Shown: positions 1,491 to 60,523 of the stretch, one piece after another
Numbering within the stretch: position 1 is the first letter of the stretch
Layout of the letters: each line of letters begins with the position of its first letter
DNA from: Cycas panzhihuaensis
Lineage: Eukaryota; Plantae; Cycadophyta
Length of the DNA stretch: 64,000 nucleotides
Assembly: GCA_023213395.1 (NCBI GenBank)
Contig: CM041465.1
Coordinates: forward strand, 126,797,741 to 126,861,740
Reading direction: 5' to 3'
Program-made: the position numbers and the translations under genes
The notes under the pieces: model-generated
Databases searched by the model: none
What the model was told of the DNA's origin: nothing
The model's input: only the letters and a program-made list of their open reading frames with translations

Positions 1491-3894
1491 CTTGTTTGTC
1501 GGAGGGGTCAATCAAATAGGTGTTGGTTAACATATTTTCGATCAGAAGTTCTACATAAATAGAGGTTGAAGAAGATCCTTCTTCATCAATATGATATCAT
1601 TCAAAATTAAAATTTGATACGTAACTGGATCCAAAAGTCTATAGGCTTTACTTTATTCACTGTATCTTACGAAGATGTATTTTTGACTTTTAGGATCAAG
1701 TTTCTTATGTTTTTCTTTGGGAACATGTCCCCATGCAATACTTTCAAAGATTCGTAAATGATTGACTGAGGGTTTTCTTCCAGACCACTTTTGTTCTGGA
1801 GTAACATTTTATAGGCATTTACTAGGTAAGCAGTTTAGAAGATAGTTGGAATAGTTAATTACTTCTATCCACAACTTTAGATTAAGGTTCTTTGTATGTA
1901 ACATGCAATGAATCATCTCAATAAGAGCATGGTTCTTGCATTCAACAACACCATTTTGTCGAGGAGTGTATGCAACAAAATGTTAAAATTAAATTCTGTA
2001 CTTTTTATAAAATGAAGTAAATTTACCACTTAAGTATTCCTTTGCATTATTAGATTTAAAAATTTTAATTTTTGAGTTTGATTGGTTTTCAATAAGTGTT
2101 TTGAATTCTGTAAAGATATTAAAAACTTGTCTATGTGTTTTGAGTGTGTATACCTAACATTTTCTGAAAAAATCATCAATAAACATGACAAAATAACAAG
2201 AGCCAGAATATGATGTTGTATGAAATGGTCCACATATGTTAGAGTGAATAAGTTCAAGTGAAACTTTTGCTCTAAATTGAGTTTTATGTGGAAAAGGGTC
2301 CATGTGTTGCTTACCTATTACACAAGCTTCATAGACACCATAAACAATATTTAAAGATGGAATACCATGAACCATGTCATGTCTTTTTAGGTATTGAAGT
2401 TTGGCATAACTAGTATGGCCAAATCGTGCATGCTAAAGTTTACTAATTAAGTCAGATTTGGTTATAAAGGCACTGCAGGGTTTTATTTTGTTATTTTGTA
2501 AACTTATTAAACTATAGAGACCTGTGCTATGATCAATAGGTCTAGAGATAATACATTAAAATTTTTTTAATAGTTCTTTAATAATAAATTTATCTTTCCA
2601 AAATTCGACGACAAGATTTTGCTGGCAGATTTGGTAAATTGATAGTAGGTTTAGTAACAAACTAGATACGTAGAAGATGTCCTTTATTGAACTATCTTTT
2701 AAAGTAACATCACATAATCCTTTTACTTTAAGTTGGGTTCCACTTCCAAAAGAAATCTCTTCTTCAGAGTTAGTTTTGGATTGATAAGTAGATAAGTTTT
2801 TCTAGTGTCCTATCATGTGATGGAATGCACTAGAGTCAAAGATCCATTATGGTGGTTAATTAGTTAAGGCAACAAATGTAGAAGTCGTTTCTATTAGAGA
2901 ATGATTATTAGTTTGTTATTGATTTTGTAGTTAGGATTGAGGTTGATTTTGCAATCCCTTGGAAGCTTTCCATGCTTCTAAAGCTATTCTACTTCTACAT
3001 ACATCAATAGTCTCTTTTATGATAATAGGCACAACTAGTGTTCTGAGAAGAATTTACATTGTTCCAATTAGGAAAGGACTAATTATAAGTATTATGATGT
3101 TTAGATGGACTACAATACTTAATATTATTTTGGGAGTTAGATTGTGAACTTCTATGAGGTTTCTAAAATTTTAGATTACTATTAAAATTGTTCTGATGTT
3201 TGTTTTTATTTTGTGACTTAGTTTTGGAAAATAAAGCTTGGGAAGAATCTTTTAATATGCCTATCTGAATTAACATCATTTGATATTCTATCAGTTAGTT
3301 TATCAATTGATTAAGTGTTATAAGAGGATTGTCAGCTTGTTGTCTATCTATTTTGAAAAAAATAAAATGTTTTGGTAATTTATTTATTGCAAGACGAACA
3401 AGCATATCATCGTCTTTAACGTGGGTGATTATTTATTTGGTATCACCTACTTTAGTTTTAGATTTAATATAGTTACCTATGTCTTTATTAATTAGTTAAA
3501 TTTTGTATAAAAAATCCTCAACCTTGGAAAAATCATCATAATTAAGGTCATACAATTGCTATTCTAAGACAGCCAGTTGATGTGTATTAACCTTATTATA
3601 TTTTTCTTGTAGAGTGTTCTAGACAGTGGCTAGATCATCTATTTCAGGAAATTGTCGACTAATTTCTAGTGAAAGTGAGTTCAAGATGGTACCTAGGGAT
3701 GAATCTAAGTTCATCAGATATACCATATAACTTTCTGTAGTTTCATCTTTTAGTTTTTTAAATTCACCTATTACATATCGCCATATCTTTTATTGTTTAA
3801 GCTAATGGGATATGCGATTCCTCTAGTAGGCATAGTTTGAGTTGGTTAGAACTAGAATTGGAATACAGGTGGTTGTCCCTGGCATTAGTGCCAT
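1491..3894 (-). pseudogene. Degenerate copia gag-protease-integrase
   Basis: Gag start MALMPGTT..NSNYAY*..KIWRYVIGE; protease WIFDSSAFHHM; integrase EACVIGKQH..LELIHSNICGP..YFVMFIDDF (ORF 2154-2375) and YTPRQNGVVE. Many stops. Confidence 0.9.
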
Positions 3895-4559: not shown

Positions 4560-5060
4560 TAAGAGGGAGTTAAAGGTTAACATTAAAATGTAATGTTATC
4601 ATTAAATTGTAGTAAAAAAGGGAGGGGGGGGGGGTTATAATAAAATGTAATAGGGATAATGTTAAAAATGAAGTAATGGGATGATAATGTTAATAAATGT
4701 AATAGAGGGGGAACTGCTTTTAATCTTAAAGTGTAATAGAGGGGGGTTAATTTTAATAATAAAATGTAAATAAGGAAGGGTTAATATTAAAAAGGTAAAT
4801 CAAATGTAATAAAAAGGAATTAATAAGGTGGGGAATGTAACAAGTATGAAATAAAATAAGGGAAGGTTTGATTTATAAACTAGATGTTATAAGGGGGGGA
4901 ATGTAATAAAAAGAAATTAATAAGGGGGGGAATGTAACAAGTATGAAATAAAATAGGGGAAGGGTTGATTTGTAAACCAAAGGTTATAAGCGGAGGGGTT
5001 AAAATTATCCTAAAGGTTATTTATATAGGAGGGGATTTGTAAAAATAACTTAAAGTTTAT
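4560..5060. repeat. G-run/AT-rich low-complexity repeats, including a ~97-bp tandem duplication (about 4804-4990)
   Basis: aatgtaacaagtatgaaataaaata..gaagg occurs twice; recurring aatgtaata.aggggg motifs. Confidence 0.75.
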
Positions 5061-7751: not shown

Positions 7752-10700
7752 TGTTAAATACCTCAGAATATAAGAAATCATGTGCTTTGATCAATATATT
7801 AAGTAAAATAATATAACTATGTAATAAAACATGTGAAACAAATAAGCATAACTCATATGGATAAAGTATGGGTGAATTTGTCACCACATAGAACTCTATT
7901 TGGGAGGATCTTCTACATTAATCATAATCCAATGTATAATACAATGGTGCCAGTCTTAATTTATAGTCAACTTGCCAATAATTGAAAGATACAATAGGCT
8001 GACTAAGCAACAAATAAGGCAGATCTGACTAGTTTATATAATAACATTAAATTATAATAAAGGGTCGCATTAATATTATACAATGTGCACAAATTATATG
8101 AAATATAAGAAATGATGGGTGTTATTATATGGTTTTAACACCATCCCTTAATAGGAGCTTCATTTCTTCTGATACTGAGGTCATGTGTAAACTGTTTAAA
8201 CTTTGATTTACTAAGAGCTTTGGTGAAGATGTCCACAACTTGGTCCTCAGTTAGATGATAGATGAAATTAGCTTCTCCGTTCTAGACATGTTCATGGATG
8301 AAGTGATGATGGACCTCAATGTATTTGATTCTATCATTAAATATATGATTCCATATCTAATACACTTTGATTGTGGTAATCAAGAATGATGGGTGCATGT
8401 TGTTGAAGTCCAAGTTTAGTAAGAATGCTTTTAAGACAAATCAACTCAGTTGTATGATGGACAACTACTTTATATTATATTTTGATGGAGGAAATAGAAA
8501 CACTTGGCTGCTTATTACAGCTCCATGAGATTACAACTAAATTTGCGTCAAAATAATAACATAAAGTTGAGTTGTGAGTGTCTTGGCAACTTGCCCATTC
8601 AACATCTATATGTCCCTTTAGTATAGGGGAATTAGATTAGTTATACTTAAGGCCAAACTGATGTGTACCATAGATATATTTGAGAATCCTAGTGTAGACT
8701 TTCTAATGAGATACTTTTGGTTATGACATGTACCTAGAATAGATCCCTACTACATATAAAATATCCATACGAGTGTGGGTGAAATAGATGAGGCTCTCAA
8801 CTAATTGTTGGTACAAAGTGGGATCAAAAGGCTTTCCTTGTTTATCTAGGTTTGGGTTAGTTCCTTTCACCATAGGAATTAGTGTTATTTTATACATTGT
8901 CATCCTAATTTTTTCTAAATTCTCATTGGTATACTTTGTTTGAGTCATGAAGATGTGTCTTAGTTCTTGTCAAACATAATGTTCAAGGAAGTAGTGGAGT
9001 AACCTATGATCTATTATCTCAAAGTTACTTTTTAATTATGATTAAAGCTAAACAAGGCCATCTGTGTCATTGTCAATGATTACAAGATCATTTACATAGA
9101 GAACAATAATTGTGGTCAAATTATCTCTAACCCGAATGTAGAGATCTAGGTCATAGGGTGAACAATTGAATCCATCCTAGTTAAGGACAATATCAATCTT
9201 TATACACCAGGTACATTGTGCTTGTTTCAGTTTATAAATGGATTTTTTAAGTCTACATACTGAGTATTCTTATCTTGGAATAGTATAGATGGGGTGTTGT
9301 TTGAAGAAAACCTCTTCTTTAAGGTCTCTATTGAGGAAAGTACCCTTCACATCCATTTGCTAAATATGCTAATTAAATTAGATTGCTAAGGACATAACCA
9401 AATGGAATGTGATCACATTAGCTACCGGTGCAAAGGTCTTGTCATAATCAATCCCCTCTTGTTATTTTAAACTTCTTACTATAAGGCAGGCTTTGCAAGT
9501 GTCATATTTTGTAAGGCCTTTTAGCAGTTATGGGAGGAGGAGCATCCATTAATAATTGTTATATACATTAGGATTTAGTTGAATGCTAGTGGCTTCCACC
9601 TAAAGGTCATCAACTAAAATTTGAGGTAAAGTTATACTTTCTTGAGTTGTTAATGTAGATGCTACTGGAATCGATGAAGGAGCTGGAGTGTAGAAGGAGG
9701 CTAGTATTGGTGGCTCCATAATTTGTCAAAGAGTCACTTAAGATGCACAAACTTCTTCTACCACTATAATATAAGGTTGAGGTGGAGGTAGGTCCTATGA
9801 ATCTTATATAAATATTATATCTCATGTTGTGTAAACTTGGTTCCCAACCATGTCAAACACTTTATAGGCTTTACAACTAAGTACATAGCTAAGGAAGATG
9901 CATTTCAGGATCTTGTCATCAAGCTTATTTTTATTTTCCTTTGAAATATATTTATATTCCATACATCCAAATATCTTCACAAGTGCTACCGATGGTTTCT
10001 GACCTGACCAAACTTCTTCAAGAGTAATATTTCTAACTGTAATTTTGGGACTTATGTTGGTTAGATAAGTAGTTATGGTTGTGCCACCAACCCAAGATCT
10101 GGTGGTAAGATTTGCAATACTAAGCATGACTTTTCCTTTATTTATCAATGTCTAATTCATTCTTTTAACTACACCATTTTGTTGAGGTGTGTGGGGAGCT
10201 AAGAACTGATGTTGGATTCCATGTTCCTTGCCTAAAATGTTAAATTGATTAGAAATATACTCACCACCATTATTAGATCTAAGGAGCTTGATTATCTTTA
10301 TACTTTTCTTTTCTATGGTAGCTTTGAACTCTTTGAATTTATTTAGGGTTTTATACTTATTTCTCAGGAAATAGACCTACATTTTCCTTGAGAAGTCATC
10401 TATGAATGTGATGAAATGCTAGTTTTTATCGAGTGGTTAGACAAGTACCAACCTACAAATTTCTAGGTGGACCATTTATAATGATGCTGAGGATCTCCAT
10501 GCATTCTTAGAAGGAAAATTTTCTCTTTAGTGCTTTTCTATTAGGTAAGCCTTACATATATTGTTGTACCTCTTAATTTTATGTAAACCATGTACCATTT
10601 GGGGCTTAAACATGATGTCTAAGCTTTGCATGGTTAAATGACTTAGGCATTAATGCCATAGGCATACTTTGGAGCTATTTGAGATGATAATTTCCTTTCA

Positions 10701-12220
10701 ATATGAGAATTCACTCGGTTCTTATATACAAGGGGACTCTCCATTAATGACTTCATTTACCTTATCTATTTGAGCTTTGTTGGTCATTGAACAAGCTTCA
10801 TTTTATGGAGTAGTTGTAAGGGGCATACCACCCAACCTATATAGGCCACCATTTTCATGTCTTATGGCCACAAGTTTGCATGTTGCATGATATGTGATTC
10901 TACTAATACCCTAGCCAAAGATGATATCTAAATTCTATTTGTTTATTTCATTGATAAAGAGCAAGTTCATCTCCATTTTAGGTGCAAGGAATATATTATT
11001 GATGTGGTGCCTTATATTGGAGTCCTTCAAGGCTATTGGATCCCTACAAATTTTGGTCATTATTGTAAGTCAAATTATCCTAAAATGTGATAGTTTGAGT
11101 ATCAATTGGTCAGGTGTCTTTTAACATTTTTTTCTAATCCGATCATATATCTGGTTGCACTTGAGTCAAGGAGCCATGTATCCTCATCAAGTTGTGAAGA
11201 AAGAGCTACAAAGAATAGGCTATGGAAGGAGGAATCCTAATTGTCTACCACATTACTTTCCTATTATTTATTATTATGCTGGTTCCTTTAATTTTTGATA
11301 GTAAATTGCTGCTTATTTTAAGGTCTCTGTCCTTAAGTGGGTCTCAGATTCCAATTATGTTGGTATAATTGGCCTTGTGGTTGGAATGATGGCCTTCTTA
11401 CTACTGAATAAGGCCTCTTTATTGGAAATATGGGCCTCTTTGTTACAAAATAAGACCTCTCCATTATGGAAACGAGGCTCCTTGTAGAAGGCACGATCCT
11501 CCTTACTAATATCCTTATCTCTATTAAGAGTAACTAGGACCTCCTTATTGATATGAGGGTGGTCCTTATTAGTAGATTAGGCTTAATTGCGGATAATAAG
11601 AGGTAGTTTATTAGAAAGGAGGCCCATATGATTGACTCCCTTGATTTTACAAGAGTTGTGAATCAACTTGTCCTCACTTGCATTCAAGAACTAAGCATAT
11701 TTTTTTGTCATAGTAGAGGTAACTGACATTTGGTCTAACCTATTAATTATTTTAAAATTGTGCATATGGATAGTATTGAGACTTCTGATGCTAATGACTT
11801 AGATGGGAGGAGGACGTGTTAATTGGTTATTACTTTTCTTAGGTTGGTTGTTGATATGGATCTTGAGAGATGCTTAGAGAATCTAAGTGTTGAGTTAAAT
11901 CTTGGTGTTGACTAAGCTGTTGAGTTGATCTATTGATAGTCTTATGGTTTTCTGAGTTATGGGCTATAAAGGTAGGAGCAGGGTCAGATATAGATATCGC
12001 CCCAAGTCAGTTGAGTATATTCTCCTCTTGTAATAAGAGTTCCCCATAGGTCATGGAGTCTATTTTGGAATAATTATCATGTAATTTGGAAATAAAGGAG
12101 TTATATTCTATGGGTAGGATGTTAATGATGCTAAAGATTAAATCATGGTTTAACAGTGGTTCATTAAGGATTATATCTTAATTCCTAGTTATTTTGACTT
12201 CAATCAAGTGGTGTGTAATG
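7752..12220 (-). mobile_element. Ty1/copia element B, 5'-truncated, same family as element D
   Basis: 3' LTR ~7752-8140 (tgttaa..ttaaca), PPT ccatccctt 8141-8149, RNase H (KYIEVHHHFIHEHV..DQVVDIFTKAL), RT (YQQLVESLIYFTHTR; MDVKGTFLN), integrase, protease WLLDSSAT, gag to ~12220. Collinear with 36512-41330. Confidence 0.9.
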
Positions 12221-12229
12221 TTGCCAAAA

Positions 12230-13400
12230 AACGTATACCTTTATCAAAACTTTATGAACTTAAAGAAGATAAGTCATGAAAATAAGATTAATTTTAGATT
12301 CACCTATTCATTATACGGTGTACCCTATGCTTGGCACACAAATAATTATACCCAACTCAGACATGGGAGAATATTACGAAGTAATTTAAGGAGAGACTTT
12401 AAAAGTCTTGAAGTAATAATGTAGTGGAGTTATCTCACAAGGAAATGAGATAAAGGCTAGTAGTATTACTATTAATATGAAAAATAAATATTAAAGTTGT
12501 AAGTATGATGAATAAAGAAAAAATCATGGATTATAATAAGAGAAACTATTTTATAAATGGGCTAAATTCTAAAGTAAGGGCCACAATGGTGACTCATTCC
12601 TTGAAATGCTTCCATTGCACACATGAGTTGGTATTACACTTTGAGAAAGAAATGGACATTTAAAAGGGTAGCCATAAACCTTATTATTTAGATCACGAGA
12701 CAAAATGTAATAATTAAGAAGCCAAAATATAAATAAACCTTACTATTAAGTAACAAAAATAAAGGAGACCTCAAAAGTAGAAGCCTTTAAAAAGGAAGTC
12801 ATAAGGTTGAAGTTATAAAGAAAGAAACCTCAAGTTACTAAGGAGAAGAAGAATAAAAAAATATAGGGGTAACGAACCCTAATTGAAGAAGTGGTGTCAC
12901 ATTTGTGATAATAATTCATATTCTAGTAAAGAATATGACCTAAATAAGAGGAATAATATGGTAAAAAAGTAAAGTACATGGTGTTATATTTGTGATATGG
13001 ATAACCATAATATGAATAAACACTATTTTAATATGTGTAAAATAAACCAATATAGTACAGGTTATGGAAGAAGGAACAACTTAAGCATGATGTAATATAC
13101 TAATGATGTAGGAAGACATGTGAAAAAATAATAATGCATGAAGAGAGAGTAAAGGAAAAGTACTAAACTAACTAAAATAATAGAGATAAAATTGATCTAT
13201 CCTCATAGAAAATACTTATAGAGAGATCAAATATCACCTAATAAGAAGGCTGCCAAAATCTAAGAGGTCCACTAGAGCATATATGCCCAAACTATTGAGA
13301 AAAGTATGTGCTTGGCCTATTGTAGATACCCTTCATAAAGAAGAATGTCCTATCCTAACTTAGACTCTTAAATATACCTAAAACACTAGACTCAATCTTA
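12230..13400 (+). pseudogene. Degraded gag-like region of another retroelement, with zinc-knuckle remnants
   Basis: KWCHICD..H and TWCYICDMDNH..Y remnants near 12890-13030. Confidence 0.5.
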
Positions 13401-14071
13401 AAATATGAGAAGGGACTAACTAGAGTAAGAGGCCTAAAGGAGTTAAGACCATAGGATCCATATGATCATAGGTAGGTTCTTGGAAAATTATCAATACTAG
13501 TGACTCATCTCACATAAGTTTGAGATAGGCTAATAGTAGAAGCATTTAACTCCAACTAGCCTCAAGCTCTAATAGGTAAAATAAAAAGAGGTCATTACTC
13601 TCAATAAGATGCACAGAGTTTACTCAGTTGTCGAGGCCACACATATAAATGCATAGTCAAGATAAATGGCCACCATTAGGTCAATCAGAATATGAATCAT
13701 AAGACTCTTCTCACATAAGGACAAAAGATCACCTCTCTCATCTAATGATTAAATCTAGGTTCAGAAAAAGTGATCTGCCTTATTTGTAATGAGTTAACTC
13801 ATTTGTTATAATAAATATGTCATAAAACCCTCATCAATCATGATACCATCATGACTAAGTGAAAGATAGTGGCTGGCTTACCATATCATCAACTTCAATG
13901 TGGTGATAAAACTTACTTTGAAATCCTTATTCTTGAATATACGTATAACACCTATATATACACTAGCAAGACACAGATACAATATCTCAAAAATAAATTA
14001 AAACATGCAATAAACCTCTATGAGATTTTAAAAAACCATAATCACTTATTCTCTCAACTAGATTTTCTTTA

Positions 14072-14400
14072 ATGCTCAAGTACCAACATGCTCCAAGCTC
14101 GTGACACCAATAGACTCCAAGCATACTTAATCACTAGCATGCTTTAGGCTCATGACGCCAACATTCTCTAGGTATACTCAAGTACAAACATGTTCTAGGC
14201 TTATGACACTAACAAACTCTAGGAATACTTAAGCACAAAAATGCTCCATGTTCATGACACCAACATGCTCTAAGTACATTTGGGTATCAATATGCTCCAT
14301 GGCCATGACACTAATATTCTTTAAGTATATTAGAGCACTAATATGCTCTAGGCTTATGACACCAACATGCTCTTGATTCATGATAATAACATGCTCTAGG
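14072..14400. repeat. Tandem minisatellite, ~51-bp unit (27+24 subunits), ~6.5 copies, in a retroelement leader
   Basis: Consensus approximately atactcaagcaccaacatgctctaggctcatgacaccaacatgctctaggt. Confidence 0.85.
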
Positions 14401-24806: not shown

Positions 24807-27800
24807 ATGGCCTTTAGCTTTGAAAATATAATAATTCCTAAATTTGATTAAAATAACTTTCTAAATTAGAGTAGGAAGATGAGACCCATCCTCATAGTTA
24901 ACAATATGTGGGAGATTGTGAAAATAGGATATAGTGAGTTAGGACAAAATGTAACTAATGTAGAAAAGACCACTTATAAAGAAAATATCAAAAAGGAAAA
25001 TGAAGCCCTCGCACTCATATTTTGTGCATTAGAGGACTATGTTTTCCCTCGTATTAGCGAATCAACCAAATTAAAAGAAGCATGAGACAAACTCGAACTA
25101 ATCTATGAAGGAGTTACTTCCTCTAAGCTCTAAAACCTTAGAAGCAAGTTTAAGAATTTGAGAATAATACCTATAGAATCAGTAACTGAGTTTATGACCA
25201 ACGTTCAAGATATAGTCAACCAAATTAGGTCCCTTGGGGATGCTTTGATAGAACAACGAGTGGTTAAAAGAATATTAAGATGTGTTGGTGCTATTAGAAG
25301 ATTTGAAATAGTTGTAATAAGCATAAGGGTGTCAAAGGACCTAAGTACAATACAAGTAGAGCAACTAAGTGCTATGCTAATGCTGATTAAAGAATGATAG
25401 AATGTCAATGAATTTCTTGAGTATGCCTTTGCCACTAAGACTAGAATTCAATCAAACTCTCAAGCAGAAACTTCAAGATCTAGGGAATCACCTCCCAAGA
25501 TAAGGGATCAAAACCCTAGAAGGGATGTAAGATAAGACCCTCCTAAGTACCAAGCCCCACATCAAAGGAGGTAAGGAGGAAATCAACAAAATGTGAACCC
25601 TCATAAGTACCCAAACCAAGGAAAATAATCTGAGGGATATGCATGCTGTCTAAATTATCAAGGGAATGCTCAATCCTCAAGGTTAAATTAGGACTACTAT
25701 GATAACTGACAAAGGGAAAATCCACCCCTACATTATAAGGAAAATGAGAAACCTTCCAACATTGATAGATCTCATCCAAGAAGTAGAAGTTTGAGCTATG
25801 GAAGGAGAGATCCTTTATATTGTTCATATTATCATAGAAGTGGTTATTCAGAAGATAAGTACTTTTCCAAACATAGGCCACCCACCAAAGGGAGTGCCTA
25901 TAATATAATAAAATCAAGGGACAATAATAGATTATTTTTATCCAGCTTCACTACCAAGGAAGAAGAGGACGACAATTGGTATATTGACTCAGGTTGTTCA
26001 ACCCACATGAATTACAAGGAACACCTATTTCAAACATTGGATAAAAGCAAGAAGGGATTTATAATATTTGGCAATGATACCTCACACAAATTGGTTGGTA
26101 GAGGTAATATAGCCCTCATGACAGATGTAGAAAAATATAAACATCTTAATGATGTCTTGTATGTCCTACCTTTAAAGAAAAAATTATTATCTATAGGGCA
26201 GATGATAGGGGTAAGACTATAAGGTTATATTTGACAATGGTAAGTGTGTAATCAAAGATAAAAGAAAAAATAAAGTTGTAGTTACAAAAGGAAAGATGAC
26301 CAAAGATCGATTATTCAAACTCATTCTTACTCCTTCAGATACCTATGCCCTAAAAACTATAGCTAAAGTGGATAGTAAATTGTGGCATAATAGATTTAGC
26401 AATCTTAACTATAATAGTTTGGCCCTTATGAAAAGAATGGATATGGTAAATGGATTACCACATATTGAAATAGACAAAGACTTATGTAAATGATGCCTTC
26501 TTGGTAAACATCATAGGGAACGTTTTCCATACTTCAGTCATTGGGCATCAGGTCCACTTCAACTACTATATACTAATATCTGCGGTCAAATGAATATCCC
26601 CTCACTAGTAGGAGCTCGATACTTCATCACATTCATAGATGATTTCACAAAAAAGACATGGGTATTTTTCCTCAAATTCAAATTAGACACATTTCAACAT
26701 TTTTTTGACTTCAAAACCTTTGTGGAGTGACAAAGTAGATATAAGTTACTTTCCCTAAGATCATATAATGGGGGAGAATTTATCTCTAATGAATTCAAGG
26801 CTTATTGTATTCACGATGACATTAGAAAATAACTCATTAGTCCCTATATCCCATAGTAAAATGGTGTAGCAGAGAGAAAGAATCAAGCAGTAGTCAAAAT
26901 GGCTAGGTGCATGTTAAAGGATAAGAATTTGGGATATGAATTTTGGGTTGAAGTAGTACATACAAATGTTTATCTACTTAATAAGTGCTCCACCAAAGCC
27001 CTTAGGTGGAAGATTCCTTAAGAAGCTTGGACTAGCTACAAACGAAGCATACATCACCTTAGAGTTTTTGGATGCTTAGCATATTCTTATGTTCTTGATC
27101 AAAGGAGATCTAAATTATATGATGATAGCATCAAATGTATATTCCTTAGCTATAGTAAAACCTCTAATTCATACAAAGTTTATGACCTTAATTCAAAAAG
27201 GGTCATGTTAAGTAGAGATGTTAAATTCCAAGAGGATGCCTATTATCAAGATATTCAAGAAAAGCATAAAGAAGTTATAATCAAGTTTAATAAATTGTCC
27301 AAATCCAAGTATGTACCTCCTATGTTTGACTCTAGAAGAGTCATCAATGAACCTAGTGGGGAGGTAACTTTCTCTCAACCTCTACCACAAAGTCTTTTAA
27401 AATGGATTCAGTGAAATCAGACTTAGGCAACATATTGGACAATAATCATAGATCCATACACCCACATAGGGTTAATTTTGCCTTCATGAGCAAAGCATTG
27501 GAAACTCATGAGTCTCAAACCTTTGATGAGTCCAATAAATATGCATCTTAGCGAAAGACAATGGAAGATGATTACCATTCCATTGTTAACAATGACACTT
27601 GGGAGTTAGTCAATTTACCTCTAAATAAAAAGGCTATTGGCACTAAATGGGTCTACAAAACCAAGTTTTATTTAGATGGATCTATTAATAAATACAAGGC
27701 TAGATTGGTTCCTAAGGGTTATACCCAAAAAGAAGGCATTGATTACAATGAAACTTTTTCCCTTGTTGCTCGGATGGAAACAATTAGAATGATGAGGAGC

Positions 27801-29040
27801 TTAGTTGCCCAAATGGGTTAGAAAGTCTACCAAATGGACGTTAAAAGTGCCTTCCTTAATAGCTATATCAAAGAGGATATTTATGTCGCCCAACCCCTTA
27901 ATTTTGAAGTTAGGGTGGCAGAAAACAAAGTGCATAAACTTAAAAAGACACTTTATGGATTAAAACAAGTACCCAGGGCCTGGTATTCCCACATAGACAA
28001 ATACTTTAGAGATCAAGGTTTTGAAAGATCTCAAGAAGATCCTAATCTTTATATTCAAATCAAGGGAGACTCAATCCTAATAGTAGGACTTTATGTGGAT
28101 GACCTTATATATATTGGAAATGACTCCCACTTATTATAACAATTTAAGGATGTTATGTGTAAAGAATATGAGATGACATATTTAGGGCTAATTCATTACT
28201 TCCTAAGCTTAGAAGTATGGCAAGACAAGAAGGGTATTTTTATTTCCCAATAGAAATATACCCTAGATTTATTACAAAAGTTTAGGATGATTAACTGTAA
28301 ACCTTTGGCAACTTTAGTACAAATTGGAATCAAGCTCTCTAAGTCAGATGATTCTATATCAGTCAACCCTATGCTCTACAAATAACTAATCAAAAGCTTG
28401 ATATATTTGATATCCACTCAACCTAATATAACACACTTAGTTGGTATTGTGTCTAGATTTATGTAAGATCTAAAGACCATCCATTAGCAAACAACAAAAG
28501 GAATTCTCTATTATCTCAAAGGAACTTTAGAGTATGGGTTATATTACAAAGCTTCATCAAAATTTTAGTTGATAGGTTATATAGACTCAGATTAGGTAAG
28601 AGACATTAATGATAGGAAATCCACAGCAGGTTATATGTTTAGTATGGGATCAACAACTATAGCATGGCGTACTAAGAAACAAAACACATTTTCCCTATCT
28701 ACAACTAATGTAGAGTACAAAGCACTGGTTGCAAGCGCATGTGAATCAGTTTGGTTGAGAAGACTACTACAAGATTTTTGGCTAAAACAAAAATGTGCCA
28801 TAAGAATTTGGTATGATAATCATAGTATTATTTAGATGGAAAAGAATTTAGTTTTTCATGGTAGAACGAAACACATTAAGACTCAATATCACTTTATTCG
28901 TGAACTAGTTCAAGCAAAAGAAATTGAATTGGCCTATTGTAGCACTGAAGACCAAGTAGCAAGTATCTTCACAAAGACATTAGGCAAAGTTAAATTCTAG
29001 AAATTCAGAGACAGTTTGAGAGTTATTCACATTCGGTATT
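24807..29040 (+). pseudogene. Copia gag-pol polyprotein pseudogene
   Basis: MAFSFENIIIPKFD..; WYIDSGCSTHM; LWHNRFSNLN; [33 protein letters not shown]; MDVKSAFLN; YVDDL; RTKHIKTQYHFIRELV. Confidence 0.95.
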
Positions 29041-36121: not shown

Positions 36122-36511
36122 TGAGAAAACTTTTTCAGGATCTAAATACTATGTGCATCCATAAAAATGTAATGCAAACTATTGAAATAATGAAATAATC
36201 AAGTTAAAATGAGTACAACTGAGATATATAAATGTTTATGAGTGAATTTATCACACCATAAGATTCTAATCTAGTAGAGCTTCTAGGTTATAAATGATTC
36301 AATATATAAACTATAGGGCAAATGCACAATATATAGATAATCTACCCATATTTACAAAGATTTAATTGGCTGACATATTGGCACAAGTGACAGATCTAAC
36401 TACTATTTATAATATGATTAAATTACAAATGAGTTACACCTAATAATATACAAATATACAAATGTACATGCATATTACATGGTAATGAAGGTGACATTAT
36501 AAGCTCTAACA
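36122..36511 (-). repeat. 3' LTR of copia D
   Basis: Direct repeat of 50209-50562 with ~36 bp extra. Confidence 0.95.
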
Positions 36512-39500
36512 TCCTCCCTTAATGATAACTTGATTACATTTGATGTTAAGTCATGTCGATGTGAAGATGTTTACAACCTAGTCCTCAATTAGATGGTAAA
36601 TGAGATCAACTTCTTCATTTTGGACATGTTCACGGATGAAGTGATGTCAGACCTCTATATGCTTGGTTCTAGTATGAAAGATTATATTCCTTATCATCTT
36701 TAATATACTCTAGTTATCATAGTAAAGAGTGGTAGGTGCAATTTGTTGAAGACCAAGCTCAATAAGAATCCTTCTGAGCCAAATCAACTTTATAGTGGCA
36801 TGAACAACTACTTTGTATTCAACTTTAGTAGAGGAAAGAGCAACATTTGGTTGCTTCTTACAGCTCCAAGAGATTGTAACTGAATTCATGTCAAAATAAT
36901 ATCTTCAAATTGAATGGAAAGCGTCTTGGCAACTTGCCTAGTCAACATCCATATGTCCTTTCAGATAAGAGACTTAGTTTGGTTATAATCAAGTCCAAAC
37001 TAATGTGTGTCATGAATGTATTTAAGTATCTTGGTTATAGCTTTCTAGTGGGATGCTTTGGTCTTTGACATATACCTGGAATATATCCCTACCGCATAAG
37101 AGATGTTTGGTCGAGTGTAGGTGAGGTAGATGAGACTCCCAACTAATTGCTAATTCAAGATGGGATCAAATCACTTCCCTTGCTTGTCTAGGTTTAGCTT
37201 GGTTCCTATTTCCATGGGAATTGATGCTAGCTTGCAATCTTTCATCCTAAATCTTTGCAAGAGTTCATTGGTATATTTTGATTAAGGTAGGAAGTTATGG
37301 CCTAGTTCCTACCAAACTTCAATTCCAAGGAAATAATAAAGCAACCTAAGATTTGTCATCTTAAAGTTATTTTTTAGTTCTAACTATAGCCAAGATATGC
37401 TTTTGATGTCATTGCCTATGATTGCTAGATCATCTACATAAAGAATAATGATGATGATCAAGTTTTCTCTAACTTGTATATATAAGTCTGCATCAAAAGG
37501 TGAATGTTAGAATCCATACTGAGCGAGAAAGGTGTCAATCTTTACAAACCACATATACAGTCCTACTTTAGTTCATATAAGGCTTTCTTGAGCTTATAAA
37601 CAAGTGTTATTTGCTTATAACAATATAACTGAGAGGTTGCTTCAAGGAAACCTCTTATATGAGCTCTCCATTAAGGAAAGCACCCTTCACATCCATTTGG
37701 TAGACCAACCAATTGAATTGGGCTACTAGTGACATTACTAAATGGAATGTGGGCATGTTAGCTACCAGTGCAAAGGTCTCATCATAGTATACCCCTTCTT
37801 GTTATTTGAAACCTTTTGTAACAAGATGAGCTTTGTGATGCTTGACTGTGCTATCTGCATAGAATTTGGTTTTATACAACTATATACAATTAATGGCCTT
37901 TTCCCAAGTGGTAATTCTATCAGCTTCTAAGTTTTATTTTTAAGGATGGAGTTCATCTCTTCATTCATGGCTACTTTCTATGTTTGGTCTTTGAGTGCCT
38001 CCTCAAATATGGAAGGCTTAGGAGTTTTTAAGACATATGGCATTAGAGAAAAATTGGTAAAGTGTCTTATCTTTAATGGCCTTTTAACAACTGTGGGAGG
38101 AGGAGGAGAATCATTTAACACTTATTGAACCCACTTGGGAGGTGGCTAAATGTTGGCAGCTTCTACCTATAGGTCATCAACTGAAATAGGTGGCATAGTT
38201 GTGCTTACTTTTATTGTAGAAGTGGAGACTACTAGAATTGATGAAGGACCTAATGTGTAGGAGGAGATAGGTATTGGTGGCTCTAGAATGGATGTAAGAG
38301 GCACTTGAGGTGCACCAACTTCTTCTTTTACTATAAACTAAATTTAAGAGGAATTCAAGTCCTATGTATCTTCTGCAAAAATAATATCTCTAGTTGTGTT
38401 TTCTTAGTTTCTAACAATGTTGAACACCTTGTAGGCTTTGCAACCAGGTACATAGCCAAGGAAGATACACTTAAGGCTTTTATTATCAAGATACTTTCTA
38501 TTCTCCTTTGGAACAAGTTTGTATGCCATGCATCCAAACATTTTTAAATGTGTAACAGTTGGTTTAAATCCTAATCATGTTTCCTTAGGAGTGATATTCT
38601 TAACTGCTATAGTGGGACTCCTGTTGGTTAGGTATATAGTAGTCATAATTACATTAATCCAAAATCTAGTGACAAGGTTGGTAGTACTTAACATGGATTT
38701 TCCTTTATTCACTAAAGTTTAGTTCATTCTCTCAGTTATATTATTTTATTATGGTGTGCGAGGTGCTAAAAATTTATATTTGATGTCATGTTCCTTATAG
38801 AAATTAATGAATTGGTTTGAGATGTATTCATCACCATTATTAGATCTTAGTATCTTGATGGTCACGCCACTCTCATTTTCTACATTAACTTTGAACTCCT
38901 TAAATTTATCTAGGGCTTGGTACTTATTTCTCAAGAAGTAAACCCATAATTTCCTGGAATAATCATTTTTAAATATCATTAAATACAAGCTACCATTAAG
39001 TGATTGTACTAGCATTAGCCTATAAATATCTAAGTAGACCAACTCCAATGGTTAGAAGGCTCTCCATATATTCTTAGATGGGAAATTTTCTCTTTATTAC
39101 TTTCCTATAAGATATGCCTCACAAATACTACTATATCTCTTGATCTTAGGCAAGCCATGTACCATATGAAGCCTCAACAAGAGGTTCAAACTCTGCATAT
39201 TAAGTGACCTAGGCATTAATACCATAATTAGTCTCTGGCACTATTGGAGGTAGATGGTTTATTTGAGTAGGAGCATTGACCTGGTTCTTAAACAGAAGGT
39301 TGGCCCTCTACTATGATCTCCTTACCCTTGTCAATTTGGGTACTTAAGGCCATTAAGCAGGATTCTGTTAGTGGGTTATTAGCTATAGAGGGATACTATT
39401 AAGCTTATATAAACCATTTTCTTCATGTCTTACTACTATAATTTATCTAGTTGTATCATCCATAATGGTGTAAATGCCTTGACTAAAGAGGACATCTAAG

Positions 39501-40309
39501 TTCTACTTATCGATTTACTTGACTGAAAGCAGATTCATTTTCATACCTCGAACTAGGAATACATTATTGATATGATGCCTTATGTTAGAATCTTTTATTA
39601 ATATTGGGGTCCTTTTAATTTTAGTCACATCATATGTCAAGTTACACCAAATGTGACTATTTATGTGCTAATTAGACAGGTCTACTCCAACATATTTCTA
39701 TGCTAGTCATGTGGCAAGTGACACCTAAATTAAGTAGCCAAGAGTTATCACTATGCTGAGATGACAATGCTACAAAGAATATATTTTGAGGGGAGGTATC
39801 CTAGGTGTCCACCACATGGCCTCCTTGTTAAGTGTTGGGGTTGGTCCTTTGATTCTTAAGTGGGAATTACTGTCTGTTGTACTACCATTGACTTTGATTA
39901 GATCTTTGGTTTCAATTTTGTTGATAGAATTGGCATAGTTATTAATATGATGGCCTTCCTTGTGGATATATAGATCCTCCTCCTTATTAGAGGTAAGGAG
40001 TTTCTTATTAAAGAATGTCATGGATGAGGGGCTCCTTGGTGAGAGTATAGTCCTCCTTATTGATAACTTTAACCACTTTATTAAAAGTTAGGTGCTCCTT
40101 GTTGATAGGATGTGGCTTCTTGTTGGAAGCTAAACCCATAAGGTTAACTCCCTTGATTTTATAATATTTACAGATTAGCCTATCATCTCTTACATTCAAT
40201 AGTAAGGCAACCAACTTTTCTACAATATAAGCAGGTGACATTAGGTCTACTCTATTATTATTTTTTTGTTTGAGGTTGTGATGGTTGTTGGGACTACTAA
40301 GGTTATTGA

Positions 40310-40887
40310 TGTTAAGAATACAGGTCCCAAACCTTAAATCGCCACAAGATCTAAACTATTTTGTAACTAGTTATAGGAATTGAAACTAAGAATTAACATG
40401 CCAGTTCTAAAATCAGAGATAATGTAATAACATCAGTATACAAGCTAAAAATCACATATGCACGTAATATAATGTGGTAAAACCCTAGCAATGTGCTAGG
40501 GACACATCCACACAGGAAAGGTATCGATCTTTATTATTGTAGAATGGAGAAACAGTACATCTTAGTAGCACAGTGCTCTCAGGAACAATAACTAGCCACC
40601 ACCCTCATCATAGTACATTACATTACATACAACATCATAAGAAAAAGCCCTAAAATAGGCTACATGAGAGGGACATCCAAGGCATAAATCTCAACCGTAG
40701 AATCTAGGGCATTTATATCAAATGACTCTAATTCTATTTACAATTTAATAAGGTTTGCAGAGCTAATTTTTTGGGTTGGGGGCTCCCGCCCCACTTAGAA
40801 CCCCCCCGAGAAAGATTAGGAGGGGAAATCGCATCGAAAACACACCAAAATTTTAACCCGAAAATATTGTTGTCACAATATCCAACA
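40310..40887. mobile_element. Solo LTR (578 bp) inserted in gag of copia D
   Basis: TGTT...AACA termini with a perfect ATTGA TSD (40305-40309, 40888-40892); retains CpGs. Confidence 0.9.
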
Positions 40888-41647
40888 ATTGACCTTGATA
40901 GGAGTAAGTGTCAACTTAATGTGGTTTATGTTGAGTTGGTAGCTAATTTGGCTCTTGTGAGATATCTAAGGAGTTTAATTGTTGAGTAAAACTTTGAAGT
41001 TAACTAGGCTGCTGAGCTGGTTATTGTATAGTTTTCCCCCTCTTTGGGTTTTAGGATATAAATGAAGGGGCCAAGTCAAAGGTAAATGTTACCACTTATT
41101 GATTAAGAATGTTTTCTTCTCTTAGCAAGAATCCCTCAATGATGATAAAATTTATTTTAATGTAGTTATCATAGAGTTTAGAAACAAAACTATCGTATTC
41201 TATTAGGAGGACATTAAGAATAATGGATATAAGGTCATGGTTTAATAGAGGTTCTCCAAGGATTATTAACTGATTTCTAATTATTTTTACTTCAGTTAGA
41301 TGGGCAATAATGTCTCCTTTAAAGGGGATAGCAAATATATGTGCTTTGAGAGTCAAGAATCTTAACTCATATTTTCTCTTATAGAGAGCACATAGGATGG
41401 TCCAAGCTTCATGACAGGTTTGAGCTTATTTCTATGTTCTGGTCTACTTTGTCTTCTACCACTAAGTGGAGGAAGGACAAGGCTATAATATCCTTAGCTA
41501 TAAAGTAAGCTAAGGCAATTAGATTAGGTGAAATGGTGATGTTAGAATCATCAGGATCTTAGGTTGGTCTAGGTAAGGGGATGTCACCATTGACATAGGC
41601 CTAATAGTCTTTCATAATGAGTAAGTTTTTTACTTGTTTCTTCTAAG

Positions 41648-42770
41648 TGATCTGAATTAAATAGAAAAGTAAAGACTTAATCCAATTTAAACAACTTAGA
41701 TTCAATATTATATAAAATACATTTTTACATTTGAAATGTTCTTACAAAAATATATTTATTTTATGCTTTATTGAGCATATTCTAAACTGCTACAATAACC
41801 TAATGATAGTTGGAAGAGATCTGGTCTCTTTCTTGGCTATTGCGTCTCATTTGGAATTTTTTCTAACAATCTTGATGTGAGGTTTTACCCTTTGTTTGGC
41901 CATAAACTCACTTTTGGGATGTTTTCAGACTTGCGCATCTTCTTAGGACTGCTATGACTATTTTCTTCTCTTCCTAGATGTATTTGAAACTACTCAGACT
42001 CCTCATGTGCCTCACAAATAGATCTATACCCTTCTTCTATGCTCATCCTTGTTTGTTCTACTTCCATTCCCTTTTGTCTAGCTGTAACGAATTTTTGGGA
42101 TGATGGTAGACTTATGCATTTCTCTAGGACTGCTACTACTGCCTTTTCCTTCTCCTTGGCTACATTTGAAAACTGTTGGGTTTCCTTCCTCCCTTACGAA
42201 TAGATTTGGGATATTTTCCTATGTTCCTCCCTATCTGTTTAATTTCCTTTTTTGTGTGTCCCCATTTTTAATTATCTTTCCCCTCCCCTCTCCATTTTAT
42301 ATCTTTATTTTCCTTAGTTCATAACTAATGAAAATAAGGTAATAAAACTAATTTCTATCTCTTAGTAGATCATTGACATGCGTATAATTGTGTTGGGTAA
42401 TTTTTGTGACCATTTGATCACTCTTTTTATCATTAGATCATAGTCTAGTCATCCTTGGTTGTAGTTTGTTCGTACTTGGATATAGTATGGTTGTACCTAG
42501 TTATAGTTTGGTCACATTTGGCCATAGTTTGGTCACATTTGGTTGTAGTCTGGTTGCACCTGCAAACTTCTAGTTGTACCTAATACAGTTTGGTTGTACC
42601 TTACCAAAATATGATTGCACCTTTTTAATGCATTTTTCTCATATTTTAAGAGTATGAATTATATTTTCCCACCTACTAAAGGCTGTCCACATGAAAATAA
42701 GTTCCATCTGAATGTATTTATACTCTTTTTGAAGAGTATTAAGGATTTTAATGGGTTTGAAATTAGATCA
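41648..42770 (-). repeat. 3' LTR of gypsy F, with a ~190-bp internal duplication and a 21-bp tandem array (~42440-42600)
   Basis: Direct repeat of 47404-48314; tagtctagtcacacttggttg-like units. Confidence 0.9.
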
Positions 42771-47403: not shown

Positions 47404-48314
47404 TGATCCAAATTGAATGGAAAAGTAAAGGCTTAATCCAATTGAAATAAATCAGATTCAATATTACATAAAATAAATTTTTATATTTGAAATGTTTTTA
47501 CAAAAATCTATTTATTTTATGCTCTATTAAGTTTATTCTAAACTGCTACAGTAACCTAGTGATAGTTGGAAGAGATCTAGTCTCTTTCCTAGCTATTTCA
47601 TCTCATCTCAAATGTTTTCCAACTATCTTGATGTGAGGTTTTGCCTTCTGTTCAACTGTAAGCTCACTTTTGGGATGTTTTTCAGCTTGGTGATCTTCTT
47701 AGGATTGTTATGATTGCCTTCTTCTCTCCCTAGCTATGTTTGAAACTACTTAGACTCCTCATGTGCCTCACGAATAGATCTAGGCCTTTTTCATGCACTC
47801 CTCCTTGTCTGTTCAACTTCCTCTTCCATTCATCCCTATTTTTAATTATCTTTCCCCTATTTTATATCTTCATCTTCCTTAGTTTATAACTAATGAAAAA
47901 TAGTTAATAAAACTATTTTCCATCTCTGATTAGATAGTTGATAAGTGTACAGTTGTGCTAGGTAATTTTCATGATCATCCAATCACTTTTTTTACTATTA
48001 GATTATAGTCCAATTGCACTTGGCTATAGTCTAGTTGTACCTGGCTGTAATCTAGTCACACTTGGTTGTAGTCTAGTCACACTTGGTTGTAATCTAGTCA
48101 CGCTTACGTACTTTTGGTTGCAGTTGAGGCAGTTTAATTGCACCCTACCAAAACATGATTGTACCTTTTTAATACATTTTTCTCACATTTTAAAAGCTAG
48201 AATTTTGTTTTGTTGCCTATTAAAGGTTGGACACATGAAAAAATGTTCCATCCAAATGTATTTATACTCCTTTTAAAGACTATTAAGGATTTTAATAGAT
48301 CTAAAATCAGATCA
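47404..48314 (-). repeat. 5' LTR of gypsy F, with a 21-bp array at ~48005-48130
   Basis: Adjacent to the PBS; direct repeat of 41648-42770. Confidence 0.9.
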
Positions 48315-58120: not shown

Positions 58121-58481
58121 AGTAGCTTTATAAGGGAGAATACCAAATACCAGGCTCGGGGAAATGGGTGTACGACAGTTTTGGCCAAGGCAATTGGATC
58201 GAGGTATTATAGTTATTTTTCAATGAATCAACTTAAATAAAGGGTGATAAAAGTGGTCTTAAGCCCCCAAAACAACCAAAGCCATAAAAATACAAATAAT
58301 ATATACTGTAGTGAGTGAAATTATCACAACACCAAAAAGGTTTAAAAATAGAAACAAGTATTGGAGACATAAGAAGATAATATAGTGACACAATAGAGCC
58401 ACAAACAAAATAAAAAAAAAAATCAAATAGAATAGAGAAATATATACATAATCGAAAAAATTCTAAATATAACAGAGAAAT

Positions 58482-58603
<122 letters not shown>

Positions 58604-58875: not shown

Positions 58876-59207
58876 TGATGGATTCAGAGGAGCAGAGTAG
58901 GACGTTAGATCAAGTCCATTTTGAGAAAATAGGTGATTTCTGATTATTGGCAGTGTTTCAAGACACTAGGGTTACACAACCCTCCAAATATATAGCTTGG
59001 GGGAGGAGGGAAACTCCTCAACCCCTAGAATTCAAATAATAATAAAATATTATAAACTTAACTCAAAATAACTTAACTCAAATCAACTTAACCTTACCTT
59101 TTACTTACCTTCACATGTTGAGCACCCACATGTATAAATTGGTAAGAGTAGGGTGTGCACTCCTAGTTGAAAGGTGGGAGTGGGGTGATGATCATTAACC
59201 CCATTCA
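58876..59207 (-). repeat. LTR, inverted copy of 60193-60523
   Basis: Reverse-complement match over the full ~330 bp. Confidence 0.95.
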
Positions 59208-60523
59208 TCATATTTTAAAGTTTATTCTAAATGCACACAGTTATTGAAAGTATTTTTTCTATTTATCATTGTTGAAAAATTCATTTCCCTATCACACTTA
59301 TAAACGTTGCATCTAGTTTATTTAATTTCTAAAGGCATCTTTTATTTTTTCAAAGGGAATTACATTTCTTTCAAAGAGTATATTTGAAATTATATAAGTT
59401 TATTAATTTATTGAGTTCTTTGACTTGGTAAAAGCATGTCTTTTTTATGTACAAAATTTTTTTTTTTATTCAAATGGCAATCAATCTTAATAAAGTATAA
59501 TTTCCTATATTTGATGGCCATAATTTCTCACAATAGCATAAAATAATACACAATTATTTCATCACAAATGATCTTTAGAAATACTTACAAAATGAATATG
59601 ATCTTACTATTAAAGAAAACTTTAAAAAGGATAATGAAATCTTAGGAATATTATTTTGCACTATAGATGATAATGTGTTTTCTAAAGTTTATGAACTAAT
59701 AACTTCCAAATATGTATGGGACATCTTAATTTCTACTTATGGGGGAGATACCCTCAATGAATTTAACATTGATATTATTGAGCATGTGAGACAGGTGCTA
59801 AAGCAGGTGGATTGTAATTAAAAGACCAAGGAAAATTTAAGTTAAATGCATGATCATCTTGTTACACAAGTACCTGATCCTCCATTTGAGAGGGAGGAAT
59901 CTTATGATATGGTAGAGGAGAGATCTTATGATATGATAGTTGCTCACAACATAAAGACTTTAAAAGACAAAGTTAAAGTTCCAGAAGATAAAGTTAAAGT
60001 TGCAACCATACTTCCACATTCACATCAAGCTACATTTACTTAGAGATTTTTTGCACCACTCAATTGTAAAAGGATGAGGCAAGTTAATAAAGATCAATCT
60101 AAGAGATAGATTTTAAAAGTTTTTTTTAAAGTACAAATTTCATAAGTTTAAAGAGAAGACAAGTTGTTAGTGATGACCATTAAGGGTGAGAATGTTGGGA
60201 TTAATGATCATCATCCCACTTCCACCTTTCAACCAGGATTGCACACCCCACTCTCACCAATTTACACATGTGGGTGTTCAATATGTGAAGGTAAGTAAAA
60301 GGTAAGGTTAAGTTGATTTGAGTTAAGATATTTTGAGTTAAGTTTGTAATGTTCTATTATTATTTGAATTCTAGGGGTTGAAGAGTTTTCCTCGTCCCCC
60401 AAGCTATATATTTGGAGGGGTGTGCAACCTTAGTATTTTTAAACACTGCCAATAATCAGAAATCACGTGTTTTCTTAAAATGCACTTAATCTAACGTCTT
60501 GCTCTGCTCCTCTGAATCCATCA
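59208..60523 (+). mobile_element. Non-autonomous mini-copia: leader, gag N-terminus, deleted pol, PPT and 3' LTR (60193-60523)
   Basis: Gag MAINLNKV*FPIFDGHNFSQ*..NDL*KYLQ from 59474; PPT taagggtgagaa; LTR tgttgg..ccatca. Confidence 0.8.

What the first reader, a model, noticed from the sequence alone, without database searches (positions are those of the whole stretch)
11385..11740. Hidden prion-like YQQGG heptad repeat after the Gag zinc knuckle (copia B)
Seen: 21-bp periodicity. Reading the minus-strand frame of the decayed knuckle and restoring TAA/TAG to CAA/CAG gives ..QNQGSQSYGPPFQQ..IYQQGPP SYQQGGP SYSQQRQ GYQQGGS..LQQRGP YFQQRGL. Known: Q/G/Y/S oligopeptide repeats such as yeast Sup35 PQGGYQQYN define prion-like domains, and yeast Ty1 Gag has an N-terminal prion-like domain. 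Inference: this plant copia family has a C-terminal, tandem-repeat prion-like domain between NC and protease, possibly driving particle or RNA condensation. ORF callers miss it because Gln codons decayed to stops.
Basis: partly seen in the sequence, partly recalled or inferred. Interest (0 to 1): 0.75.

Follow-up and report, generated by a model that had tools for sequence, protein, structure and literature searches.

The report
Fossil prion-like repeat in plant retrotransposon
An old, broken plant jumping gene carries a run of seven-amino-acid repeats right behind the RNA-binding part of its shell protein, rich in glycine, tyrosine, serine, proline and likely glutamine, which may once have helped its particles condense, a role shown so far only for an unrelated stretch of a yeast element.

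Summary
The repeat is real. A 21-nt array (about 11390-11640, minus strand) sits between a decayed zinc knuckle and the protease of a dead Ty1/copia element. A second family copy in the same window (about 36200-41400, ~70% identical) has the same array two units shorter, with real Gln pairs where copy 1 has stops, and its second half reads straight into the protease. Third-position bias favours the Gln frame over the NKE frame, and Gln/stop exchange is as common in pol as in the array. The knuckle-protease spacer is ~168 codons against 29-98 in 88 intact copia proteins. So it was most likely a coding, low-charge Q/G/Y/S/P tract. What is not shown: no intact family member was found, PLAAC and disorder were not run, and the tract may have been spliced or cut away from Gag. 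Prion-like domains are already predicted in plant copia elements (PMC10372613), so the news is the tandem, post-knuckle form. New variant of a known kind; function untested; interest 0.4.

The parts
12003..12231 (-). Copia Gag capsid part, decayed
   Evidence: Read with X at stops it finds 4 proteins among 1.84 billion; all 4 hit Pfam Retrotran_gag_2, 3 of 4 above the cut-off; the matching part of copy 2 hits it at E 1.5e-4. Copy 1 itself has no Pfam Gag hit.
11728..12000 (-). Q/S/P/H-rich linker before the knuckle, same frame as the capsid part
   Evidence: 91 codons: Q 12%, stops 8%, N 8%, S 14%, charged 12%; transversions against copy 2 by codon position 13/10/24.
11680..11721 (-). Decayed zinc knuckle (x2-x4-x4 spacing; Tyr, Tyr, Cys, Cys at the four ligand places)
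   Evidence: copy 2 has Cys at all four places and that stretch matches a profile of 80 intact Gag regions at E 9e-5 in a search of 8 sequences.
11390..11660 (-). 21-nt heptad array, Q/G/Y/S/P-rich with stops in the Gln columns (the finding)
11240..11392 (-). Q/N-rich tail leading to the protease, behind a frame break particular to copy 1
   Evidence: 51 codons: Q 16%, N 18%, stops 10%; in frame with the protease motif; some related contigs differ by an indel at this place (table 4).
11140..11230 (-). Aspartic protease active-site region (Trp at 11176)
   Evidence: matches the profile of intact Gag-protease regions at E 6e-7.
8171..11099 (-). Integrase, reverse transcriptase and RNase H in copia order, 35 stops in 912 codons
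   Evidence: Pfam gag_pre-integrs, rve, SH3_retrovirus, RVT_2; tblastn of intact relatives to 8171.
36207..41323 (-). Second, decayed copy of the same family
   Evidence: blastn 66-70% over three blocks, tblastn 52-62%.
39960..40233 (-). Knuckle (40192-40233) and heptad array of copy 2, 42 nt shorter, with its own frame break near 40018
   Evidence: second half continuous with the protease motif.

Best explanation
This is a tandem array of 21-nt units between the zinc knuckle and the protease of a dead plant Ty1/copia family, which was likely translated in the Gag-Pol frame as a low-charge Gln/Gly/Tyr/Ser/Pro tract and would have served as a sticky, unfolded tail helping Gag and RNA gather before particle assembly. 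Shown: the array, its place, its presence in two diverged copies, whole-unit length change (42 nt) and frame continuity on each side. Inferred with good support: it grew by slippage of the 21-nt unit, was read in the Gln frame under amino-acid constraint, and lost many Gln codons to C-to-T decay after the copies died. Inferred with weak support: disorder, retention on mature Gag, and a condensation role, with Tyr/Phe once per unit as contact points and Gln/Gly/Ser/Pro as flexible spacers (general knowledge of prion-like domains, recalled).
For: Frame: in copy 1 one frame runs from capsid through knuckle to the array end; in copy 2 the first half is in frame with the knuckle and the second half runs into the protease motif; each copy has one frame break in this region, at different places. 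Copy-versus-copy transversions by codon position are 7/10/17 in the array, 8/7/15 in capsid and 88/72/145 in pol; third-position excess p 0.033 for the array, 7e-4 with linker and knuckle; the NKE frame would put only 7 of 34 at third positions. Decay: of 17 aligned array codons that are Gln or TAA/TAG in both copies, 3 are Gln/Gln, 8 Gln/stop, 6 stop/stop (5.9 expected if independent); pol gives 12, 18, 11 of 41 (array versus pol p 0.39). C/T exchange before AA is 0.57 in pol and 0.58 in the Gag low-complexity region. Composition: G+Y+S+P 43%, charged 6%, Gln 10% plus stops 18%; with stops left out, the best 60-residue window scores 0.53 on (QNGYS minus DEKR) against a maximum of 0.43 in 86 intact Gag regions. 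Spacer 504 nt against 29-98 residues in 88 of 120 hits that had both motifs. Contigs of related copies lie across the array in 4 of 4 runs laid. Precedent: Ty1 needs its prion-like domain for mobility and the Sup35 prion domain can replace it (PMC10372613, passages).
Against: No intact family member was found, so the living protein is not seen. Against distant intact relatives only 2 of 14 conserved Gln columns of pol are stops in copy 1, much lower than the array. Only 4 of the 16 stop sites showed another letter at 45% or more in any of 3 runs, so related contigs mostly share the stops. The stop at the array start (11649) is shared by both copies. A unit-versus-unit test within copy 1 did not favour the Gln frame (36/82/78). 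The tail behind the array shows no third-position excess (6/10/7). About 7 array codons were aligned out of register, which adds noise. Plant copia Gag is often made from a spliced RNA that drops the protease region (PMC5580714, passages), and no shared donor site could be placed here. EVD Gag forms granules although no prion-like domain was found in it (PMC12252137, passages).
Confidence: 0.45

Rival explanations
1. A tolerated slippage expansion: the array was translated in the Gln frame but only as a passive spacer in Gag-Pol, spliced out of the Gag RNA or cut off by the protease, and its prion-like make-up is a by-product of the repeated unit.
For: Unit number differs between copies and units are degenerate; polar low-complexity linkers are common near copia knuckles, in intact relatives and in two other copia families of this window; splicing around the protease is widespread in Arabidopsis copia elements; 88 intact relatives do without such a tract.
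Against: Third-position share of transversions in the array (50%) equals that of pol (48%), which suggests constraint on residues and not only on frame, though on 34 changes only; low charge and Tyr/Gln/Gly columns persist in two copies ~30% apart.
Confidence: 0.38
2. Gag ended at a real stop just behind the knuckle (11649), and the array was reached only by read-through or was a non-coding spacer between gag and pol.
For: Both window copies have TAA there and it is not among the sites with a frequent other letter; the closest natural protein, P0126, ends shortly after its knuckle; some plant lineages have two ORFs (PMC6317226, passages).
Against: With ~59% of such codons decayed per copy, sharing is expected about one time in three; P0126 ends where copy 1 has a Gln codon and its own knuckle is decayed; the array keeps frame with the protease and shows coding bias.
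Confidence: 0.09
3. The array was coding in the neighbouring NKE-repeat frame, with the C/T changes falling on silent positions.
For: That frame has only 2 stops in 88 codons and is largely open in copy 2 as well.
Against: It joins neither knuckle nor protease without two extra frameshifts; transversions would be 10/17/7 by codon position, the reverse of coding; C-to-T decay of Gln-Gln-Gly codons cannot make stops in that frame, so its openness is expected.
Confidence: 0.04
4. The array is a captured piece of a host gene for a repetitive Q/G/Y/P protein.
For: Earlier unreviewed notes report host-gene capture by copia elements in this genome; the units recall FET-family and glutenin repeats (recalled, no call).
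Against: No protein matched the array, and Pfam gave nothing, though X-rich queries are weak; whole-unit indels point to local slippage.
Confidence: 0.04

Closest known systems
Yeast Ty1 Gag prion-like domain (Beckwith et al. 2023, PMC10372613; passages and sections 15 and 18 read)
   Same: Same superfamily; polar, charge-poor, proline-containing tract on the Gag side of the polyprotein.
   Different: Ty1's domain is N-terminal (residues 66-136), has no oligopeptide repeats and is tested by experiment; this one lies behind the knuckle, is a tandem heptad array and is known only from dead copies. No homology is implied.
Predicted prion-like domains of plant copia elements Retrofit, Evelknievel and AtRE1 (one sentence in PMC10372613, section 18)
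   Same: Plant Ty1/copia with prion-like composition, prediction only.
   Different: The passage gives no position or repeat structure; these sequences were not compared here. PMC12252137 found no such domain in EVD Gag.
Sup35 oligopeptide repeats and FET-family [G/S]Y low-complexity domains (motifs recalled; the Sup35 motif is from the finding)
   Same: Imperfect short repeats of Gln, Gly, Tyr with one Pro per unit; 5 [G/S]Y pairs in 90 codons.
   Different: Seven-residue unit, almost no Asn in the array, retrotransposon context; likeness of composition only.
Ordinary plant Ty1/copia Gag-Pol (TNT 1-94-like automatic names)
   Same: Domain order and motifs; 27-42% identity over pol.
   Different: Knuckle-protease spacer 29-98 residues, about 35% charged; low-complexity parts lie before the knuckle and are Arg/Gly-rich.

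Membership tests
Ty1/copia LTR retrotransposon | Order Gag, protease, integrase, RT, RNase H | tested here: met
Ty1/copia LTR retrotransposon | Copia-type Gag (PF14223) | tested here: met
   Through copy 2 (E 1.5e-4, below the cut-off) and 4 of 4 nearest proteins; copy 1 alone has no hit.
Ty1/copia LTR retrotransposon | CCHC zinc knuckle | tested here: inconclusive
   Spacing kept, ligands decayed: Y/Y/C/C in copy 1, C/C/C/C in copy 2.
Ty1/copia LTR retrotransposon | Pair of LTRs and primer binding site | tested here: inconclusive
   No LTR pair found for either copy by blastn; primer site not looked for.
Prion-like domain | 60 or more residues rich in Q/N/G/Y/S and poor in charge | tested here: met
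   90 codons, charged 6%; exceeds 86 of 86 intact Gag regions on a simple score even with stops left out. This score is my own proxy.
Prion-like domain | PLAAC score above threshold and predicted disorder | not testable with these tools
   PLAAC and disorder predictors are not among the programs offered, and no intact ORF is in hand.
Prion-like domain | Self-assembly, condensation or prion nucleation in assay | not testable with these tools
   Needs bench work.
Ty1-type Gag prion-like domain | N-terminal to the capsid domains, no oligopeptide repeats | tested here: not met
   Lies behind the knuckle and is a tandem array; Ty1 features.
Ty1-type Gag prion-like domain | Part of mature Gag and required for mobility | tested here: inconclusive
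   No shared splice donor could be placed; requirement not testable.

The most novel reading that the evidence does not exclude
A high-copy plant copia family evolved, independently of yeast Ty1, a Sup35-like tandem-repeat prion-like tail behind its nucleocapsid, tunable by adding or dropping 21-nt units, that nucleated its RNA-Gag condensates and took the place of the Arg/Gly-rich linker of ordinary copia Gag; such domains are hidden across methylated plant genomes because their Gln codons decay to stops.
Probability: 0.3. Interest if true: 0.65.

Novelty: new variant of a known kind. Interest (0 to 1): 0.4.

Why it matters
Beckwith et al. ask how widespread prion-like domains are in retroelements and whether repeats matter. 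A post-knuckle, repeat-built tract of variable length would be a natural test case, and the yeast swap assay exists. It also shows a blind spot: in genomes with heavy C-to-T decay, Gln-rich tracts turn into stop-rich DNA and escape ORF-based surveys. As it stands it is one fossil family without an intact copy or any functional result. I found no paper describing a tandem Q/G/Y heptad behind a copia knuckle in searches (listings and abstracts' starts only; the library lacks most subscription papers).

Tried and rejected
No whole genome is held, so other copies could not be pulled. Protein searches for the array: 551 candidates, none at E 0.01; 138 candidates, none at E 1; the full HMMER search gave 4 hits, all to the capsid part. 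The pol search gave only distant copia proteins, 120 listed of 2403. A DNA motif from the array start found 0 stretches in metagenome and viral contigs; P0126 in metagenome contigs gave 595 pattern hits, none confirmed. No RNA holder listed. No look-alike in earlier findings. A PPxY late-domain-like motif in one unit of copy 1 was rejected: copy 2 and most related contigs differ there. Donor-like GT sites near the knuckle are not shared between copies. No structure prediction was run: a single X-rich low-complexity sequence would not be informative. The lineage within plant copia (Gymco, Ale, Ivana and others) was not assigned for lack of labelled references. The ESM Atlas was not searched.

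Full report
Setting. The window is AT-rich, repeat-filled DNA with a single stop-to-stop frame of 150 codons or more. CG is at 0.17 of expectation, CAG/CTG at 0.49 and CCG at 0.11, as expected for a land-plant genome with CG and CHG methylation (established knowledge). An earlier unreviewed note calls this genome a gymnosperm, likely a cycad; I checked only the plant-type depletion. No whole genome is held.

Observation. The 21-nt period is real: z 5.0-5.6 at lags 21, 42, 63 over the given span, 6.0-6.6 over 11385-11600, nothing over 11600-11740. In the frame of the knuckle, 16 of 88 codons are stops, all TAA or TAG, and they fall mainly in the third and fourth columns of the unit, beside 8 Gln codons. 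All broken frames were read with X at stops.

The element. Pfam finds pre-integrase, integrase, SH3 and RVT_2 in copia order on the minus strand. The Gag part of this copy has no Pfam hit, but it finds 4 proteins in the full HMMER search, all 4 of which hit Retrotran_gag_2. One frame runs from this capsid part through a polar linker and a decayed knuckle to the end of the array. The protease motif follows 504 nt after the last knuckle Cys, behind one frame break near 11392; some related contigs differ by an indel there. No LTR pair was found.

A sibling in the same window. A second copy lies at about 36200-41400, 66-70% identical. It has Cys at all four knuckle places and the same array, 42 nt (two units) shorter, with intact Gln pairs in units where copy 1 has stops. 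It has its own frame break near 40018, after which the array reads without interruption into the protease motif. The two copies together therefore tie the Gln frame to the knuckle on one side and the protease on the other.

Which frame was coding. Transversions between the copies fall 7/10/17 on codon positions 1/2/3 in the array, 13/10/24 in the upstream linker, 8/7/15 in capsid and 88/72/145 in pol. The third-position excess is p 0.033 for the array and 7e-4 with linker and knuckle. The NKE frame would give 10/17/7. Against this: the tail behind the array shows 6/10/7, a unit-versus-unit test inside copy 1 gave 36/82/78, and about 7 array codons were aligned out of register.

Are the stops decay? 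Among aligned codons that are Gln or TAA/TAG in both copies, the array has 3 Gln/Gln, 8 mixed and 6 stop/stop of 17, with 5.9 shared stops expected by independence; pol has 12, 18 and 11 of 41. C/T exchange before AA is 0.57 in pol and 0.58 in the Gag low-complexity region. In contigs of related copies, 4 of 16 stop sites carry another letter at 45% or more in at least 1 of 3 runs, and 2 of the 8 Gln codons of copy 1 read as stops at that level: exchange runs both ways, but most related contigs share the stops. Against distant intact relatives, only 2 of 14 conserved Gln columns of pol are stops. The stop at 11649 is shared by both copies and could be an old terminator; I could not exclude this.

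How unusual. Of 120 listed pol relatives, 97 had a protease motif and 88 a knuckle before it; their spacers are 29-98 residues, median 38, about 35% charged. The array has G+Y+S+P 43% and 6% charged residues. With stops left out it scores 0.53 (copy 2: 0.57 over 44 residues) on a simple QNGYS-minus-DEKR window, above all 86 intact Gag regions long enough to score (maximum 0.43, Arg/Gly-rich and mostly before the knuckle). These relatives are distant and were chosen by pol similarity, so they are not a full sample of copia lineages. The family is repeated in related organisms: 20 of 24 listed runs from 12 studies hold 8-21% of the words, and contigs lie over the array in the 4 runs laid. No intact member was found.

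Mechanism. Most likely the tract was translated as an unfolded, low-charge tail with one aromatic residue per unit, and helped Gag and RNA gather into assembly foci (inferred; 0.45). The main rival is a passive spacer present only in Gag-Pol or cut away (0.38). Many Arabidopsis copia elements make Gag from a spliced RNA that drops the protease region (PMC5580714, passages); no shared donor could be placed here, so membership in mature Gag is open.

What is known. Ty1's N-terminal prion-like domain is needed for mobility, has no repeats, and can be replaced by the Sup35 domain (PMC10372613, passages and sections 15, 18; commentary PMC10466094, passages). The same paper mentions predicted domains in Retrofit, Evelknievel and AtRE1 without position; its supplement was not read and may bear on this. 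EVD Gag forms granules with no prion-like domain found (PMC12252137, passages). PMC6317226 (passages) notes tandem arrays in non-coding regions and two-ORF lineages; PMC13547354 (passages) has no mention of prions. Searches showed no description of this form.

Verdict. Observation confirmed, reading partly supported. A real, probably coding, prion-like-composition heptad array in an unusual place, known from dead copies only. New variant of a known kind; interest 0.4.

Noticed in passing
window 8364-12000 against 36700-41300: C/T exchange between the two copies is highest before AA among non-CG, non-CHG contexts (0.57 in pol, against 0.26-0.50 for the others), so decay in CHH context is strong in this genome.
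   Followed up: partly
window 40315-40895: 580-nt insertion in the Gag linker of copy 2, with no other match in the window.
   Followed up: partly
window 41648-42770 and 47404-48314: Two copies (72-84%) of another repeat, each with a 21-nt tandem array (42440-42554, 48004-48105) of a different unit; coding status unclear.
   Followed up: no
window 14071-14373: Tandem array of about 6 units of 51 nt, 70% alike.
   Followed up: no
window 24807-29036 (+) and 1575-3700 (-): Two further copia elements of other families; both have long polar linkers before the knuckle (G/N/Y/R-rich and N/S/K/Q-rich) and no heptad array.
   Followed up: partly
window 58876-59203 and 60196-60523: 328-nt inverted repeat, 91% complementary, 992 nt apart; looks like a young DNA-transposon derivative.
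   Followed up: no
window 4803-4996 and 58480-58603: A 97-nt tandem pair rich in G and A runs, and a 124-nt AT microsatellite.
   Followed up: no
window 11697 and 40209: Both copies have Cys at the knuckle place that is normally His; one low-depth related contig differs there.
   Followed up: no
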